From a virus: a stretch of DNA of 36,271 nt. A program made the translations under genes and the position numbers. Position 1 is the first letter of the stretch; the number at the start of each line of letters is the position of its first letter. The stretch lies in the UHGV virus genome UHGV-0245185; one strand, written 5' to 3'. The notes under the pieces are model-generated. The model was given only the letters and a program-made list of their open reading frames with translations, had not been told where the DNA came from and searched no databases. This document shows positions 1,646-5,561 of the stretch, one piece after another.

Positions 1646-1832
1646 TATCTAAAATGTTGAAGTTAAAAGATACAGCCCAGTCAGTGCAGACCGTAACCTT
1701 TTTAATACAATTATCTTCAACCTCTAGCGGTTCAAACCAATATTCAATAATTTCTTTATGCCCAATATCATCTTTTACTTCGCATTCAAAATGCTGACTC
1801 ATCATAACATTTTTAAATTCATCAAAAGTCAT
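1569..1832 (-). CDS. Hypothetical small protein (T4 46.2 position)
   Basis: ORF track, 87 aa. ATG overlaps the gp47 stop (ATGA), suggesting translational coupling. Confidence 0.5.
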   Translation of the reverse strand: MTFDEFKNVMMSQHFECEVKDDIGHKEIIEYWFEPLEVEDNCIKKVTVCTDWAVSFNFNILDNDTPKSLQDMAVSCIKDAYCEVFDI

Positions 1833-2848
1833 TGTGTTGCCTCTACATATAACTGATTTGCATATTGAATAAGTGCTTCGCGATCAGAATCAGTGATGTC
1901 TGGAATTGCATTAATGTATTCTTCCATCAACGTCTGAAGAGATTGAACTTCAACTTCTTCACTATCATCTGACTCGACTGAGTTATCAATCTTTGACACA
2001 ACTCGTAATGAATGCACAACTTTTTCTAGTTCAGATTCGAACTTCGTTAGATTTTTGTCTACTTCAGTTACTATAACACGCACTGATAGATTTGTAAAAT
2101 CTTTATAGTCAATTTTTCCCTCAAATGGATATTGAATTCGACGATGCCAGGTGGTGTTGTTTGGAATAAATTCCATTCGTTCTGTTTCTGTATCAAACAT
2201 CCAGAACCCGCGAGGGTCATTCTCGTCACCTGCAGTTAGTGTCCATGGTGTCCCAATATATCTGACGTTAGCAGCCTCAGAGATAGTATGGAAGTGACCA
2301 GACCACACCTCTTTATAAGTCTTAAGGAAATCAGGTTCAAGACCGTGAGATTTCATTCCTTTATAAAAATAAAATCCATTCAGTTCCCAGTGACCAACAC
2401 AAAAAGAAGCAGATGAAGTTTTGATGTGTTCAAGAATTTCACCAGTATTTTCTTCGCACATCCAAGGAATTAAATCAATCAAACATCCGTCAAAATCTAC
2501 TGTAGTAGGCTTATCATATACTTTAACATTAGGATATTTAGCCAAAAGCTCAGTAGAAGCATTTGGATGCATTACATTTTTGTAGTGGAGATCGTGATTT
2601 CCTACAATAGTATGTAATGTGATTCCAGCACCATCAAGCATTTGAACTATTTCACGAGCGAACTCCATAGTTTTATGCGTGATTGCTTTTCGCACATCAA
2701 AAATATCGCCGTATTGAATCCATGTAGTAATTCCATTTTTCTTAGAATATTCTATCGCTTGCTTAATTCCATCAATTTGAATACCGCGAATCCACTCATC
2801 ATCAGCTTTAACGCCTAAATGCCAATCACCCAAGTTTAGTATTTTCAT
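1829..2848 (-). CDS. 47: Recombination endonuclease subunit gp47 (Mre11/SbcD-like phosphoesterase)
   Basis: 339 aa with phosphoesterase motifs (GDWHLG, GNHD). Near-identical to T4 gp47 as recalled. Confidence 0.95.
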   Translation of the reverse strand: MKILNLGDWHLGVKADDEWIRGIQIDGIKQAIEYSKKNGITTWIQYGDIFDVRKAITHKTMEFAREIVQMLDGAGITLHTIVGNHDLHYKNVMHPNASTELLAKYPNVKVYDKPTTVDFDGCLIDLIPWMCEENTGEILEHIKTSSASFCVGHWELNGFYFYKGMKSHGLEPDFLKTYKEVWSGHFHTISEAANVRYIGTPWTLTAGDENDPRGFWMFDTETERMEFIPNNTTWHRRIQYPFEGKIDYKDFTNLSVRVIVTEVDKNLTKFESELEKVVHSLRVVSKIDNSVESDDSEEVEVQSLQTLMEEYINAIPDITDSDREALIQYANQLYVEATQ

Positions 2849-3449
2849 GGTGTCTTTTCCATCCTAATTTAGCTGCTTTTGAAACCAGTTCTTTAATTTT
2901 TCCTTTTGTCCATTCAGGACCAGGAGGTTCATGACATAACATTTGCTTAACTCCGTTATTATACCATTTTTTACCTTTATTATGTGATGAAGCTTTAAAT
3001 TTATTTGACCTTCCTTTTACATAACCTTCTGGAATATAAGGCAAAAAGGCAGATTTTCCTGTTAATGGATCATGTGAATGTATATTTCCTTTACAATTAT
3101 GAGAACCATATAATGGATGATTTTGTCCTTTATTATCTCTTCCAAATGAACCTTTTGGAGCAGCATATGACATATTAAAGAATAATGGATTTTTAACTGC
3201 ATCATGCAATCGTTGATAATATAACTCGCATTTAATAGCTTCTTCACGCGTATCAAATTCAGCTAAAATGCATGAATCAAATAAGTGAGGATTATCTGAA
3301 AGCTCTTTATTATAAATTTTCTTATACTTTTTAGATAAAACTGAACCATGATATCCAGCTAAATGCCTATCTAAAGACGTAGATCCAATATAAAAAGGAG
3401 GAAGCTTATCTCCACTATATATTGTTAAATAAGTTATATATTTTTTCAT
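2826..3449 (-). CDS. GIY-YIG family endonuclease-like protein (putative free-standing homing endonuclease, Seg-like)
   Basis: 207 aa. N-terminus TIY-x9-YIGST, then DRH, FDSCILAEF and EEAIKCE, paralleling I-TevI GIY / YVGS / FECSILEE / ERENF. Basic G/K/H-rich C-terminal half. Its 3' end overlaps the gene 47 start by 23 nt. Confidence 0.65.
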   Translation of the reverse strand: MKKYITYLTIYSGDKLPPFYIGSTSLDRHLAGYHGSVLSKKYKKIYNKELSDNPHLFDSCILAEFDTREEAIKCELYYQRLHDAVKNPLFFNMSYAAPKGSFGRDNKGQNHPLYGSHNCKGNIHSHDPLTGKSAFLPYIPEGYVKGRSNKFKASSHNKGKKWYNNGVKQMLCHEPPGPEWTKGKIKELVSKAAKLGWKRHHENTKLG

Positions 3450-3608
3450 ATATCAAGAACCGTCATTGAAATGCAAAATAAAATTATTGAAATAAATCCA
3501 TCTGGAGTGCTAAAGAACCCAATCCAACACGCTCTAGTGAATAGATAAAATGCGAGAAAAAGTATCACATATCCAAGAAATATCATTATATCAAACTCCG
3601 TATAAAGC

Positions 3609-3628
3609 TAAAGGGCCGAAGCCCTTTA
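3609..3628 (-). terminator. GC hairpin with UUCG tetraloop directly after the a-gt stop (weak terminator or RNA-stability element)
   Basis: Plus taaagggccgaagcccttta: 8-bp stem, loop CGAA (UUCG in the minus-sense RNA). The downstream U-tract is weak. Confidence 0.4.
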
Positions 3629-4828
3629 TTTTGTAATAATGTCAAACTGTTCTTTAAAGCAGAAGCTTGAATCTTGATGCTGATACAAAAATTCATAAGC
3701 TTTTTCGCGTTCACGGTCATAAAGAGCTCGGTCAGATGACAGTTCTTTAATACGTTCAAATGTTGATTCCATGTCATTTTCATCAAACCAAACGATACCG
3801 CTATCATGAGAAATTAACGGAGTATTATCAACACGGAATTTTAAATTTTCGCCAGTAGATTTCCAAAATACTGGAATTGTTCCACATGCACCAAGCTCGA
3901 GATGAGTATATTCTAAAGAACGTTGTAGATATTTTTTGTCCAACTTACTCAACTGATAACCAAATCCGGATTTACTCATGCGTTCAAGCATTTCGCTATT
4001 TACATAACGGTCGAGAATTTGCGTCGGCAAATTAGGAGCAATTTTAATTTGGTCTACTTGATGAAGACGATAATACTCATATGGAATTCCTTTTTCTTTA
4101 ATAGGAATGAACGCTGGAGAACGTTCCAGACCTTCCATAATAGTACTTAGCCCAGCAGGTTTAAGATGTTTTTCGTGAAAATCAAACATCTGATAAAAAC
4201 CTTTCCATGTAGTCGTACGACCAATCCAACGGTTGACATTCATGTTAATTTCAGAAACATCTTTCCAGTAGGTTGATCGAACCTTCGCAATATCCATAGG
4301 AGGCTGAAAGTTGTATACAGTCGGTGCTTCTTCAATATCATCAAACAGAGAAACCGTTTCTGGATACCATTCTTTCATCAAAACTTTATTAAAGTCACCA
4401 TTATCAGAATGGCTAAAAATAACATCAGCTCGACGAACAGTTTCTTCTAATCCCAAATTTCGGCGCAAAGAAAGAGAAGAATGGTCATGTTGATAAACTA
4501 CAACACGAACCGAAGGTTTAATGTTATCAATAATTTTTTTATAGTTATTAATAGTGTCTTCTTCGACTGAAGTAGCAGGAACTGAATTGATAATTAGAAT
4601 ATCACAATCATTTACCAGCTTAAGTGTTTTATCGTATTCTTTTGCCAATAAAACCGGAATTGAAAATGATTTATAATCGTGCGCGCAATTACGGGTAAAT
4701 GATTTATCTTTAGCATAAACCAAAGTTACTTCATGACCATTTTTAATAAACCAATCACGTTGCTCAAGAGAAAATTTAGTTACGCCACAACCTTCAAGAC
4801 CTCGAGCCATAAAAATGCATACTTTCAT
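3626..4828 (-). CDS. a-gt: DNA alpha-glucosyltransferase
   Basis: 400 aa, near-identical to T4 alpha-gt as recalled (MxxCIFMARGLEGCGVTKFSLEQRDWF...). Confidence 0.9.
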   Translation of the reverse strand: MKVCIFMARGLEGCGVTKFSLEQRDWFIKNGHEVTLVYAKDKSFTRNCAHDYKSFSIPVLLAKEYDKTLKLVNDCDILIINSVPATSVEEDTINNYKKIIDNIKPSVRVVVYQHDHSSLSLRRNLGLEETVRRADVIFSHSDNGDFNKVLMKEWYPETVSLFDDIEEAPTVYNFQPPMDIAKVRSTYWKDVSEINMNVNRWIGRTTTWKGFYQMFDFHEKHLKPAGLSTIMEGLERSPAFIPIKEKGIPYEYYRLHQVDQIKIAPNLPTQILDRYVNSEMLERMSKSGFGYQLSKLDKKYLQRSLEYTHLELGACGTIPVFWKSTGENLKFRVDNTPLISHDSGIVWFDENDMESTFERIKELSSDRALYDREREKAYEFLYQHQDSSFCFKEQFDIITK

Positions 4829-4878
4829 TTAATATCCTCATTGTTTTGGTTTATTTTACCAAAAATTTATAAAGCAAT

Positions 4879-4898
4879 ATAGGAGCCGAAGCTCCTAT
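4879..4898 (-). terminator. GC hairpin with UUCG tetraloop followed by a T-rich tract
   Basis: Plus ataggagccgaagctcctat: 8-bp stem, loop CGAA. Minus strand continues ATTGCTTTATAAATTTTTGG. The stop of the small ORF 4895..5068 lies in the stem. Confidence 0.45.
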
Positions 4899-5068
4899 CC
4901 GCATAATACACCATACAGAGGCTCATTAGAGCTTCTAAATTTTATACGCTTATATGTTATAGTTCCTTCTGCTTTAGCTTTATCATGAGACTCTTTAAAG
5001 CGTCTCATCATTTCTGCTTTAGAGGAACGAATTTTATTATAATCTATTTCAGAAGTCTGGGTGTTCAT
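4895..5068 (-). CDS. Hypothetical small protein (57 aa), not in the ORF track
   Basis: ATG at 5068, 3 nt after the upstream ORF stop; TAG stop at 4895-4897. Translation MNTQTSEIDYNKIRSSKAEMMRRFKESHDKAKAEGTITYKRIKFRSSNEPLYGVLCG. Weak SD. Confidence 0.3.
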   Translation of the reverse strand: MNTQTSEIDYNKIRSSKAEMMRRFKESHDKAKAEGTITYKRIKFRSSNEPLYGVLCG

Positions 5069-5071
5069 CTT

Positions 5072-5275
5072 TCACAGTTGCCACCATTTTTTGACTTGAT
5101 AGGAATCAACCCACACTTTCATATTAGGGTCTGCTCTTACAATAGGAGGATTAACTTCTTTAATTGAACTATCATGGTATTCTTTTTCAGAAATTTTCAC
5201 ACAAAGATGACCGTTCAAAGATTCAGTAAATCCTGCATTAATTTTAAGACGCTTGAATTTTACGTTTGTAAGCAT
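5072..5275 (-). CDS. Hypothetical small protein
   Basis: ORF track 5072..5278 starts at TTG; the adjacent ATG at 5275 is preferred. Confidence 0.4.
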   Translation of the reverse strand: MLTNVKFKRLKINAGFTESLNGHLCVKISEKEYHDSSIKEVNPPIVRADPNMKVWVDSYQVKKWWQL

Positions 5276-5561
5276 CAATCATATCCTCAATCTGCGATCT
5301 AGTAGTCTTCCAAAGAATACTAATGAGTTCATCGTTATATGGCTGTTTTAGAATATCCCGACTTTTCTTGATAGCATATTCGTATTGAGCAAAATTATTG
5401 TTTTCAGCTGCAATCTGAGCGTGCTTATAAAGACGGTTCAGTTCGCGTTTGTTTTTAGACAATAACTTATTTGCTTTTCTTTCTGCTTCAAGACGGTTCT
5501 TTTCTTCAATAGAAGAAATAAGCTTTTCCACTTCATCATTAATTTCGGGTTTATCAGTCAT
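5244..5561 (-). CDS. Hypothetical protein (105 aa, charged, likely helical)
   Basis: ORF track; ATG 2 nt after the upstream stop, SD-like AGAGAAA. Confidence 0.5.
   Translation of the reverse strand: MTDKPEINDEVEKLISSIEEKNRLEAERKANKLLSKNKRELNRLYKHAQIAAENNNFAQYEYAIKKSRDILKQPYNDELISILWKTTRSQIEDMIDAYKRKIQAS

What the first reader, a model, noticed from the sequence alone, without database searches (positions are those of the whole stretch)
2826..3449. GIY-YIG endonuclease-like gene wedged between gene 47 and a-gt, overlapping the gene 47 start
The 207-aa ORF carries GIY-YIG hallmarks (TIY...YIGST...DRH...FDSCILAEF...E). Its last 23 nt overlap the gene 47 start, as expected for a free-standing homing endonuclease inserted in an intergenic region. 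As I recall, none of the T4 seg genes sits between 47 and a-gt, so this would be an extra mobile gene in this phage.
Basis: partly seen in the sequence, partly recalled or inferred. Interest (0 to 1): 0.5.

Follow-up and report, generated by a model that had tools for sequence, protein, structure and literature searches.

The report
Seg-like homing endonuclease gene upstream of gene 47
This is a selfish "homing endonuclease" gene of a well-known type, present in about one in seven T4-like phages and absent from T4, T2 and T6. Relatives in several phage genera sit at the same spot, just before the recombination-nuclease gene 47, so it is ordinary in kind but has a clean, testable target prediction.

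Summary
A 207-aa ORF (2826..3449, minus strand) overlaps gene 47 by 23 nt. Its ATG overlaps the stop of the small gene 47.1.

It is a GIY-YIG nuclease:
- Pfam GIY-YIG E=3e-4, just under the curated cut-off.
- The predicted fold best matches the I-TevI catalytic domain.
- Tyr, Glu and Asn residues are invariant across the family.
- It is distantly related to T4 SegE, SegG and SegC.

T4, T2 and T6 lack it. In 504 phage records with this junction, 69 carry it and 435 have an empty site. Homology breaks exactly at the ORF borders.

The only flanking differences linked to the ORF are four synonymous changes in codons 3-6 of gene 47. The same codons differ between carriers and non-carriers in Dhakavirus, and partly in Gelderlandvirus. 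Orthologues (50-76% identity) lie directly upstream of gene 47 in at least five lineages, usually with the same 23-nt overlap, while the upstream neighbour varies. dN/dS is about 0.05.

Best reading: an active free-standing Seg-type homing endonuclease that probably targets the 5' end of gene 47. It is a new member of a known kind, already labelled "putative homing endonuclease" in some GenBank records. No activity data exist.

The parts
2826..3449 (-). 207-aa free-standing homing endonuclease gene (Seg-like, GIY-YIG). The presence/absence unit is 601 bp of inserted DNA plus the first 23 nt of gene 47, which the ORF reads through to its stop.
   Evidence: ORF. Insertion relative to T4. 69 carrier records against 435 empty sites. 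dN/dS about 0.05.
3159..3449 (-). GIY-YIG catalytic domain, aa 1-97. Y7, Y11, Y20, I21, G22, E75 and N92 are invariant in the family. Position 28 is R here and K or R in 30 of 37 members.
3090..3158 (-). Linker with a remnant NUMOD3-like start (GQNHPLYGSH). It aligns with the first NUMOD3 motif of relatives. The model has low confidence here.
   Evidence: Alignment A2. 16 of 37 relatives hit Pfam NUMOD3, but this protein does not. pLDDT about 50.
2895..3089 (-). Presumed DNA-binding region: two beta-hairpin repeats, GNIHSHDPLTGKSAFLPYIPEGYVKGR (aa 121-147) and GKKWYNNGVKQMLCHEPPGPEWTKGK (aa 159-184). T4 SegE has the same repeat pair.
   Evidence: Regex and translation. Profile alignment to SegE, which covers W.NNG...P.G..KGR. 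Predicted strands 123-136 and 161-172. DNA binding itself is inferred.
2826..2848 (-). 23-nt overlap of the ORF tail (..HENTKLG*) with the gene 47 start. The ORF has no stop of its own. It ends at the TGA inside GGTGAT, the codons for G7-D8 of the gene 47 metallophosphoesterase motif GDWHLG.
   Evidence: The same 23-nt overlap is present in SEA1, P0003, P0006 (two contigs) and Aeromonas phage L9-6.
2831..2840 (-). Four synonymous differences from the T4-type allele, at gene 47 nt 9, 10, 15 and 18 (window 2840, 2839, 2834, 2831): ATA CTA AAC TTG against ATT TTA AAT TTA. These are candidate cleavage-immunity changes, or the scar of a short co-conversion tract.
   Evidence: 55 of 69 carrier records match the 104-nt window-type junction within 1 mismatch, and only 1 carrier has the T4 type. 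347 of 435 empty records have the T4 type.
3443..3449 (-). Left copy of the 7-nt direct repeat ATGAAAA, at the ORF start, which is the former gene 47 start position coupled to 47.1.
2842..2848 (-). Right copy of the 7-nt direct repeat ATGAAAA, at the gene 47 start. Recombination between the two copies would give exactly the empty site with the window-type allele seen in 8 records.
1829..2848 (-). Gene 47 (SbcD/Mre11-like recombination nuclease subunit), the proposed target gene. Nt 19-35 (window 2814..2830), GGTGATTGGCATTTAGG, encode motif I and are nearly invariant across genera.
3446..3586 (-). Gene 47.1 homologue (46 aa, predicted membrane protein), the upstream neighbour. Its stop overlaps the ORF's ATG.

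Best explanation
The ORF encodes an active, free-standing homing endonuclease of the T4 Seg type. It has an N-terminal GIY-YIG nuclease domain and a C-terminal DNA-binding region built from two SegE-like hairpin repeats.

Proposed mechanism:
1. It sits as a promoter-less cassette in the 47.1-47-46 transcription unit.
2. It has taken over the ATG that in T4 belongs to gene 47 and is coupled to 47.1 through ATGA. It reads 23 nt into gene 47.
3. In a mixed infection with a relative that lacks it, the enzyme is proposed to cut that phage's DNA at or near the 47.1/47 junction. The most likely site includes codons 3-6 of gene 47 next to the conserved motif-I coding sequence.
4. Recombinational repair from the carrier genome then copies the cassette in.
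5. Carrier genomes would be protected by the insertion itself plus four synonymous changes in codons 3-6.

Shown: the fold and family, the insertion polymorphism with exact borders, purifying selection, the constant association with the gene 47 start across genera, and the clustered synonymous differences.

Inferred: nuclease activity, the target position, immunity, and homing itself.
For: Family:
- Pfam GIY-YIG E=3e-4; 13 of 37 relatives hit GIY-YIG and 16 of 37 hit NUMOD3.
- The family profile matches SegE at 3e-12, SegG at 2e-8, SegC at 3e-7 and SegH at 3.6e-6.
- E75 and N92 align to I-TevI E75 and N90.

Mobility signature:
- A precise 601-bp insertion relative to T4.
- 69 carrier records against 435 empty records.
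- Dhakavirus has 4 carriers and 4 non-carriers, with the homology break exactly at the gene 47 ATG.
- In Gelderlandvirus, SEA1 is the only carrier found; three relatives inspected start their match exactly at the gene 47 ATG.
- Divergence of the ORF within a clade is 0.5-0.8%, against 1.6-10.6% in the flanks. The flanks are mosaic and unlinked to the ORF.

Function retained: dN/dS about 0.05, with 17-19 synonymous against 4-6 nonsynonymous changes.

Target:
- Orthologues at 50-76% identity are always directly upstream of gene 47, while the upstream neighbour varies (a-gt, 47.1, a-gt.2-like).
- A paralogue with a different C-terminus sits before the topoisomerase gene instead.
- Codons 3-6 all differ between carrier and non-carrier alleles in Tequatrovirus (P about 4e-5 to 4e-4) and in Dhakavirus (P about 3e-4 to 1e-3).
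- Codons 4, 5 and 8 differ in Gelderlandvirus.

No late promoter and no group I intron are present.
Against: - There is no biochemical or genetic test of cleavage or homing, and no paper on this gene was found.
- The Pfam score is below the gathering cut-off, and NUMOD3 is not detected in this protein.
- The canonical GIY-YIG Arg position is K or R in only 30 of 37 members.
- Characterised free-standing Seg enzymes often cut hundreds of bp from their gene (PMC2988022). The target need not be next to the insertion.
- The four silent changes could simply be donor sequence carried in with the cassette. Nt 19-45 of gene 47 show no variation in the Tequatrovirus genomes compared, so the end of any conversion tract cannot be seen.
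- 8 empty-site records already carry the carrier-type allele.
- One carrier record, ERS-1, has the T4-type allele, though that record is of poor quality.
Confidence: 0.85

Rival explanations
1. The polymorphism reflects loss rather than gain. On this view the gene is an old, vertically inherited resident upstream of gene 47 in Tevenvirinae. It has been deleted repeatedly, for example by slippage between the 7-nt ATGAAAA repeats, and does not currently home.
For: - Orthologues occupy the same site in at least five lineages.
- 7-nt direct repeats flank the insert.
- 8 empty-site records have exactly the sequence a repeat-mediated deletion would leave.
- Decaying copies exist in KPV15 and KNP5.
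Against: - Divergence of the ORF within a clade (0.5-0.8%) is 3-20 times lower than that of its flanks, which are mosaic.
- The distribution is patchy in each genus: 69/504 in Tequatrovirus, 4/8 in Dhakavirus, and one carrier found in Gelderlandvirus.
- The left neighbour differs between genera.
- Strong purifying selection on a nuclease fold.
- Gain and loss are both part of the normal homing-endonuclease cycle, so this is more a complement than an alternative.
Confidence: 0.1
2. The nuclease is kept for a benefit to the phage other than its own spread. Possible benefits are excluding competing phages by cutting their gene 47, an essential recombination function, or stimulating local recombination or amplification, as recently reported for SegB.
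For: - Strong purifying selection.
- Long-term association with one essential gene.
- Seg enzymes are known to cause marker exclusion (PMC2988022).
- SegB is reported to promote amplification of anti-defence loci (abstract of PMC13096335).
Against: - Only about 14% of Tequatrovirus-type records carry it.
- It is absent from T2, T4 and T6.
- Nothing in the locus points to a defence or anti-defence cargo.
- Exclusion and homing use the same cut, so this differs mainly in what selection acts on.
Confidence: 0.12
3. The protein is catalytically dead or unimportant. The ORF persists because gene 47's start now lies inside it and depends on its translation, so imprecise deletion would be lethal.
For: - Gene 47 has no good Shine-Dalgarno sequence when preceded by 47.1 or by this ORF. 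It has a strong GAGGA in dhaeg, where neither precedes it.
- The Pfam score is sub-threshold.
- The Arg position is variable in the family.
Against: - Retention for translation alone would not constrain the amino-acid sequence, yet dN/dS is about 0.05 over the whole ORF.
- The putative catalytic Y, Y, E and N residues are invariant in 36-37 of 37 relatives.
- Precise loss is evidently possible.
Confidence: 0.05

Closest known systems
T4 SegE (free-standing GIY-YIG homing endonuclease between inh and uvsW; Pfam SegE_GIY-YIG PF19835)
   Same: - Best T4 match to the family profile (E=3e-12).
- Same size class (205 aa against 207 aa).
- Same YIG...GY.GS...E...N nuclease core.
- Same pair of C-terminal W.NNG...P(E/D)G(F/W/Y).KGR repeats.
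- Free-standing, and in the same orientation as its neighbours.
   Different: - BLASTP identity is only about 28%.
- Different genomic site and presumably a different target (gene 47 rather than uvsW).
- The N-terminal motif Y.TYLT.Y.G.KLPPFYIGSTS is distinct.
- No activity data exist for this protein.
T4 SegG and SegC, and T6 SegH
   Same: - Seg-type GIY-YIG core, detectable by profile (SegG 2e-8, SegC 3e-7; SegH 3.6e-6).
- SegG shares the PP(F/Y)YIGS start of the core (27% identity over 109 aa).
- The review counts segC and segG among the promoter-less cassettes in existing operons (PMC2988022).
   Different: - Different C-terminal regions (NUMOD3-rich in SegC and SegH).
- Different loci: 32/59, 5.1/5.3, and next to nrdG/nrdD.
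- By the author's recollection, not checked here, SegG cuts some hundreds of bp from its gene; the review read here says only that free-standing enzymes cut hundreds to thousands of bp away. Here a site next to the insertion is predicted but not shown.
I-TevI (td intron GIY-YIG homing endonuclease; PDB 1LN0, 1MK0)
   Same: - Best structural match of the N-terminal domain.
- E75 and N90 equivalents are conserved.
- Two-domain nuclease plus DNA-binding design.
   Different: - I-TevI is intron-encoded, has a zinc finger and a helix-turn-helix, and autoregulates.
- Here there is no intron, no zinc finger and no HTH detected.
- Sequence similarity is marginal.
Orthologues already in databases: PHROG 10820; GenBank 'putative homing endonuclease' in BASEL phages such as AndreasVesalius and PaulHMueller; RefSeq 'HNH endonuclease'
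   Same: - The same gene at 96-100% nucleotide identity in 69 records.
- PHROG 10820 match at E=1e-94.
   Different: - These are annotation labels only. The 'HNH' label gives the wrong nuclease class.
- No description of the site, polymorphism or target was found in the literature searched.

Membership tests
GIY-YIG nuclease superfamily | Sequence match to the GIY-YIG catalytic domain profile (PF01541) | tested here: inconclusive
   E=3.1e-4, 21.4 bits, against a gathering cut-off of 22.6. 13 of 37 family members hit at E<=0.01, best 2.4e-5.
GIY-YIG nuclease superfamily | GIY-YIG alpha/beta fold | tested here: met
GIY-YIG nuclease superfamily | Conserved catalytic residues: two Tyr, Arg, Glu, Asn | tested here: inconclusive
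   Y7, Y11 and Y20 are present in 36 of 36 members. E75 and N92 are present in 37 of 37 and align to I-TevI E75 and N90. The Arg position is R28 here but K20/R10/N5/Q1/E1 across the family. T4 SegA-E also lack an obvious Arg at that position.
Seg-type free-standing homing endonuclease | Homology to characterised Seg proteins | tested here: met
   Family profile against SegE 3e-12, SegG 2e-8, SegC 3e-7 and SegH 3.6e-6. These are distant relationships, 27-28% identity.
Seg-type free-standing homing endonuclease | C-terminal NUMOD-type DNA-binding modules | tested here: inconclusive
   No Pfam NUMOD3 hit in this protein, even at E<=10. 16 of 37 relatives have NUMOD3. This protein has a remnant GQNHPLYGSH and two SegE-like hairpin repeats.
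Seg-type free-standing homing endonuclease | Located between genes and not inside an intron or intein | tested here: met
   It lies between 47.1 and 47. There is no Rfam intron match in 1800..5000. Gene 47 is intact.
Seg-type free-standing homing endonuclease | Presence/absence polymorphism at a fixed site among close relatives | tested here: met
   69 carrier records against 435 empty records, with identical borders. The pattern repeats in Dhakavirus and Gelderlandvirus.
Seg-type free-standing homing endonuclease | Site-specific cleavage of the allele that lacks the gene, and resistance of the carrier allele | not testable with these tools
   Only indirect evidence: clustered synonymous differences in gene 47 codons 3-6 that are linked to the gene.
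Seg-type free-standing homing endonuclease | Preferential inheritance with co-conversion of flanking markers in mixed infection | not testable with these tools
   Indirect evidence only: the ORF is much less diverged than its flanks. No long linked tract is seen in the flanks.
HNH endonuclease (the RefSeq and PHROG 10820 label) | HNH / beta-beta-alpha-metal motif | tested here: not met
   No HNH Pfam hit. The fold matches are GIY-YIG proteins.

The most novel reading that the evidence does not exclude
This may be one lineage of Seg-like endonucleases that has tracked a single essential target, the 5' end of gene 47, across at least five Tevenvirinae lineages that infect Escherichia, Salmonella, Klebsiella and Aeromonas.

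- The gene has no stop codon of its own. In most lineages it ends in the GGTGA(T/C) codons of gene 47's catalytic motif I. Its 3' end and the start of gene 47 are therefore physically and perhaps translationally interdependent, which would favour its retention.
- Its recognition site would include the wobble positions of codons 3-6. These have flipped between carrier and non-carrier alleles in two genera, and partly in a third.
- It would also be a homing endonuclease that cuts the gene for the Mre11-like nuclease which, from the T4 literature as I recall it (not read here), processes the double-strand breaks that homing depends on.
Probability: 0.35. Interest if true: 0.5.

Novelty: new member of a known kind. 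Interest (0 to 1): 0.33.

Why it matters
- It adds an uncharacterised Seg-type element to the T-even repertoire. Because T2, T4 and T6 all lack it, any of them could serve as a ready recipient in homing crosses.
- The comparative data narrow the likely target to about 20-40 bp at the start of an essential, well-studied gene. They also name four specific silent positions to test for immunity.
- It corrects a widespread RefSeq mislabel ("HNH endonuclease").
- It shows that the gene 46-47 operon is a repeated landing site for homing endonuclease genes. This matters for explaining mosaicism and marker exclusion among therapeutic T4-like phages.

Tried and rejected
- **PDB sequence search and NCBIfam:** no meaningful hits.
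- **IMG/VR pattern scan for the gene 47 5' end:** only 4 loci, all empty sites. The population counts were therefore made with four designed 104-nt junction queries against the phage collection.
- **ERS-1:** this is the one carrier with a T4-type gene 47 start. Its ORF looked like a frameshifted dead copy, which would have been good evidence for immunity. But gene 47 in the same UNVERIFIED record is frameshifted too, so the record is simply poor. It was set aside.
- **Long co-conversion tracts:** none found. The flanks are mosaic and unlinked to the ORF beyond nt 18 of gene 47. The nearest upstream variable site is 48 nt away and is not linked.
- **Are the 8 empty sites with the carrier-type allele the closest relatives of carriers?** The result was ambiguous.
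- **C at gene 47 nt 10 as the universal immunity determinant:** rejected. The non-carriers MX01, RB14 and NP4 also have C there.
- **Promoters and introns:** no T4 late promoter (TATAAATA) near the ORF, sigma-70-like sites no more frequent than in shuffled sequence, and no group I intron.
- **Literature:** searches found no description of this gene.
Full report
**1. Observation**

Gene 47 is 1829..2848 (-), so the two overlap by 23 nt.

Between the ORF and a-gt (3626..4828, -) lies a 46-aa ORF, 3446..3586 (-). It is the homologue of T4 47.1 (PHROG 6693, E=1.5e-31; T4 annotation). Its TGA overlaps the ORF's ATG as ATGA.

The window is a Tequatrovirus segment. The 47-to-a-gt region is 99.0% identical to Shigella phage vB_SsoM_113 and matches 596 phage records.

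**2. What the protein is**

Sequence evidence:
- Pfam gives one hit, the GIY-YIG catalytic domain, over aa 4-84. E=3.1e-4 and 21.4 bits, just under the 22.6-bit gathering score.
- PHROGs places the protein in family 10820 (E=1e-94). That family is labelled "HNH endonuclease". A weaker match is to PHROG 314, "homing endonuclease".
- The large protein search found 170 homologues. About 28 are full-length relatives at 48-76% identity.
- Many others share only the N-terminal 110 residues or so. These carry Pfam NUMOD3 repeats in a different C-terminus.
- Of 37 aligned members, 13 hit GIY-YIG, 16 hit NUMOD3 and one hits SegE_GIY-YIG.

Structural evidence:
- An AlphaFold model built on that alignment is confident in the N-terminal domain (pLDDT above 92 for aa 1-95; mean 82).
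- Foldseek agrees (1ln0/1mk0, probability 0.99-1.00).

Catalytic residues:
- Y7, Y11, Y20, I21 and G22 are present in 36 of 36 members.
- Y33, G35, E75 and N92 are present in 37 of 37 members.
- hhalign places E75 and N92 on I-TevI E75 and N90.
- The position of the canonical Arg is R28 here. It is K or R in only 30 of 37 members.

Relation to the T4 endonucleases, which were extracted from the T4 record:
- The family profile matches SegE best (E=3e-12).
- That alignment includes two C-terminal repeats of the form W.NNG...P(E/D)G(F/W/Y).KGR. Here they are aa 121-147 and 159-184.
- Next come SegG (2e-8; BLASTP 27% identity over 109 aa) and SegC (3e-7).
- T6 SegH matches at 3.6e-6.

So this is a distant Seg-type GIY-YIG protein. 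The "HNH" label is wrong.

**3. Insertion polymorphism**

In T4, 47.1 and 47 overlap by ATGA, and nothing lies between them. Relative to T4, the window has exactly 601 extra bp at that point.

The flanks are otherwise identical for 70 nt upstream and 62 nt downstream. The exception is four synonymous changes in gene 47 codons 3-6 (ATT TTA AAT TTA becomes ATA CTA AAC TTG).

A 7-nt direct repeat, ATGAAAA, marks both ends of the insert.

Table 1 of the T4 mobile-element review lists no seg or mob gene at this site (PMC2988022). T2 and T6 are also empty.

Four 104-nt junction queries were run at E<=1e-30:

| Site state | Records | T4-type gene 47 start (≤1 mismatch) | Window-type start (≤1 mismatch) |
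|---|---|---|---|
| Empty | 435 | 347 | 8 (e.g. SHFML-26, BCPEco_001, Ec_YwIITB1) |
| Carrier | 69 | 1 (ERS-1) | 55 |

ERS-1 is an UNVERIFIED record with frameshifts in both the ORF and gene 47.

The 8 empty records with the window-type start have exactly the sequence that deletion between the two ATGAAAA repeats would leave.

**4. Flanks and selection**

SNP matrices were built for 5 carriers and 11 non-carriers, over 1400 nt upstream and 1280 nt downstream.
- Only gene 47 nt 9, 10, 15 and 18 go with the ORF.
- Everything else is a mosaic unrelated to carrier status.

Two clades of the ORF differ by 3.4-3.9%. Between them there are 17-19 synonymous and 4-6 nonsynonymous changes, giving dN/dS of 0.05-0.08.

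Within a clade the ORF differs by 0.5-0.8%. Its flanks differ by 1.6-10.6%. The ORF is therefore constrained as a protein and is younger than the backgrounds it sits in. This fits horizontal spread.

Decaying copies exist. The KPV15 copy is split into small ORFs. The KNP5 copy is covered only 63%.

**5. Association with gene 47 across genera**

Homologues lie immediately upstream of the gene 47 homologue in:
- Gelderlandvirus SEA1 (76% nucleotide identity);
- Dhakavirus QL01 and IME08;
- Jiaodavirus KPV15;
- metagenomic contigs carrying P0003 (73%) and P0006 (64%);
- Aeromonas phage L9-6 (50% amino-acid identity).

In SEA1, P0003, P0006 and L9-6 the overlap with gene 47 is again exactly 23 nt. 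The ORF runs through ATGAAAAT and stops at the TGA inside GGTGA(T/C). Those are the codons for G-D of the GDWHLG phosphoesterase motif. KPV15 and QL01 stop a little earlier.

The upstream neighbour differs: 47.1 here, a-gt in KPV15, and an a-gt.2-like ORF in SEA1 and QL01. In Dhakavirus the ORF replaces 47.1. MX01 has 47.1, and dhaeg has neither.

A paralogue in Yersinia phage TG1 has the same nuclease domain but a different C-terminus. It sits before the topoisomerase gene.

The constant partner is therefore the 5' end of gene 47. It travels with the C-terminal, presumably DNA-binding, half of the protein.

**6. The silent-site signature repeats**

- **Dhakavirus:** four phages carry the ORF and four do not. 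Homology breaks exactly at the gene 47 ATG. QL01 or IME08 (carriers) against MX01 or dhaeg (non-carriers) differ at nt 9, 12, 15 and 18, the wobble positions of codons 3-6. The next difference is at nt 39. Pairs of equal status are identical there, or differ only at nt 10.
- **Chance estimate:** given the number of differing codons in gene 47, the chance that these four named codons all differ is about 4e-5 to 4e-4 in Tequatrovirus pairs. It is about 3e-4 to 1e-3 in Dhakavirus pairs.
- **Gelderlandvirus:** SEA1 (carrier) against NP4 (non-carrier) differ at nt 12, 15, 24, 54 and 60, and then not until nt 130.

Two readings fit. The changes may protect the carrier's own gene 47 from cleavage, as is usual for free-standing endonucleases. 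Or they may be the visible part of a short tract of donor DNA brought in with the cassette. Nt 19-45 show no variation in the Tequatrovirus genomes compared, so the end of such a tract could not be seen. I cannot separate these two readings by computation.

**7. Expression context (inferred)**

- There is no T4 late promoter near the ORF.
- Sigma-70-like matches are no more frequent than in shuffled sequence.
- There is no intron.
- The ORF looks like a promoter-less cassette in the 47.1-47-46 unit. The review describes this for several T4 seg and mob genes.
- It uses the ATG position that is coupled to 47.1 in T4.
- Gene 47 has no good Shine-Dalgarno sequence when 47.1 or this ORF precedes it. 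It has GAGGA in dhaeg, where neither does. This suggests translational coupling of gene 47 to whatever lies upstream.

**8. Verdict**

The element is a Seg-like GIY-YIG free-standing homing endonuclease gene. It is very probably active and probably specific for the 5' end of gene 47.

It is a new member of a known kind. Some submitters already label it "putative homing endonuclease". It is absent from the laboratory T-even phages, and no paper I could search describes it.

Its interest is modest. What the analysis adds is the cross-genus link to gene 47, the conserved 23-nt overlap that ends in the motif-I codons, and a four-position immunity hypothesis that can be tested directly.

Noticed in passing
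window 4829..4894 (between a-gt 3626..4828 and the a-gt.2-like ORF 4895..5068, minus strand): The window lacks the HNH homing endonuclease gene mobB, which T4 carries between a-gt and a-gt.2 (795 nt). Only a 66-nt spacer is present. So this phage has one endonuclease gene that T4 lacks, and lacks one that T4 has, within about 2 kb.
   Followed up: partly
L033:1496-2350 (T6); also L015, L016 and L020 at 4511-5365; split in T2 (L022:4511-5363): A second polymorphic ORF (284 aa) lies between 46.1 and 46 in T6, SHFML-26, BCPEco_001 and LYE-01. It matches PHROG 655 'homing endonuclease' at E=3e-45 and has no Pfam hit. It is absent from T4, GiZh and RB32, and from the window by coordinate inference only (gene 46 runs off the window's start). 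Both subunit genes of the 46/47 nuclease therefore have a mobile endonuclease gene landing site just upstream.
   Followed up: partly
window 2826..3449; RefSeq records such as NC_054919, NC_054911 and NC_028847: RefSeq and PHROG 10820 name this protein 'HNH endonuclease'. Profile and fold evidence say GIY-YIG. This is a mislabel that has spread.
   Followed up: yes
L014 (PP337211.1, Escherichia phage ERS-1, UNVERIFIED_ORG): This is the only carrier record with the T4-type gene 47 start. The record has multiple frameshifts in the ORF and 36 in-frame stops in gene 47. It is therefore a low-quality or chimeric assembly rather than a natural dead copy.
   Followed up: yes
L007:2274-2984 (Klebsiella phage KPV15); NC_055713 (Shigella phage KNP5): These look like decaying copies of the same gene. 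In KPV15 it is split into three small annotated ORFs. In KNP5 only 63% is covered, in two pieces. This fits the usual gain, decay and loss cycle of homing endonuclease genes.
   Followed up: partly
window about 3590..3625, minus strand (upstream of 47.1): After the a-gt terminator-like hairpin (3609..3628), the sequence TTTAGCTTTA, then 12 nt, then TATAAT resembles a T4 middle (MotA-dependent) promoter. Its -10 element overlaps the 47.1 start codon. This was recognised from memory of the consensus and was not tested.
   Followed up: no
L031 (dhaeg), L030 (MX01) and L008 (QL01), upstream of gene 47: Dhakavirus shows three states at the same junction: 47.1 present (MX01), the endonuclease gene in place of 47.1 (QL01, IME08), or neither, with a strong GAGGA ribosome-binding site before gene 47 (dhaeg).
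   Followed up: partly
L009:2155-2838 (Yersinia phage TG1): A paralogue has the same N-terminal nuclease domain but a different C-terminus. It sits directly upstream of the topoisomerase large-subunit gene and overlaps its start by 8 nt. This is an example of the same nuclease module re-targeted by swapping domains.
   Followed up: no
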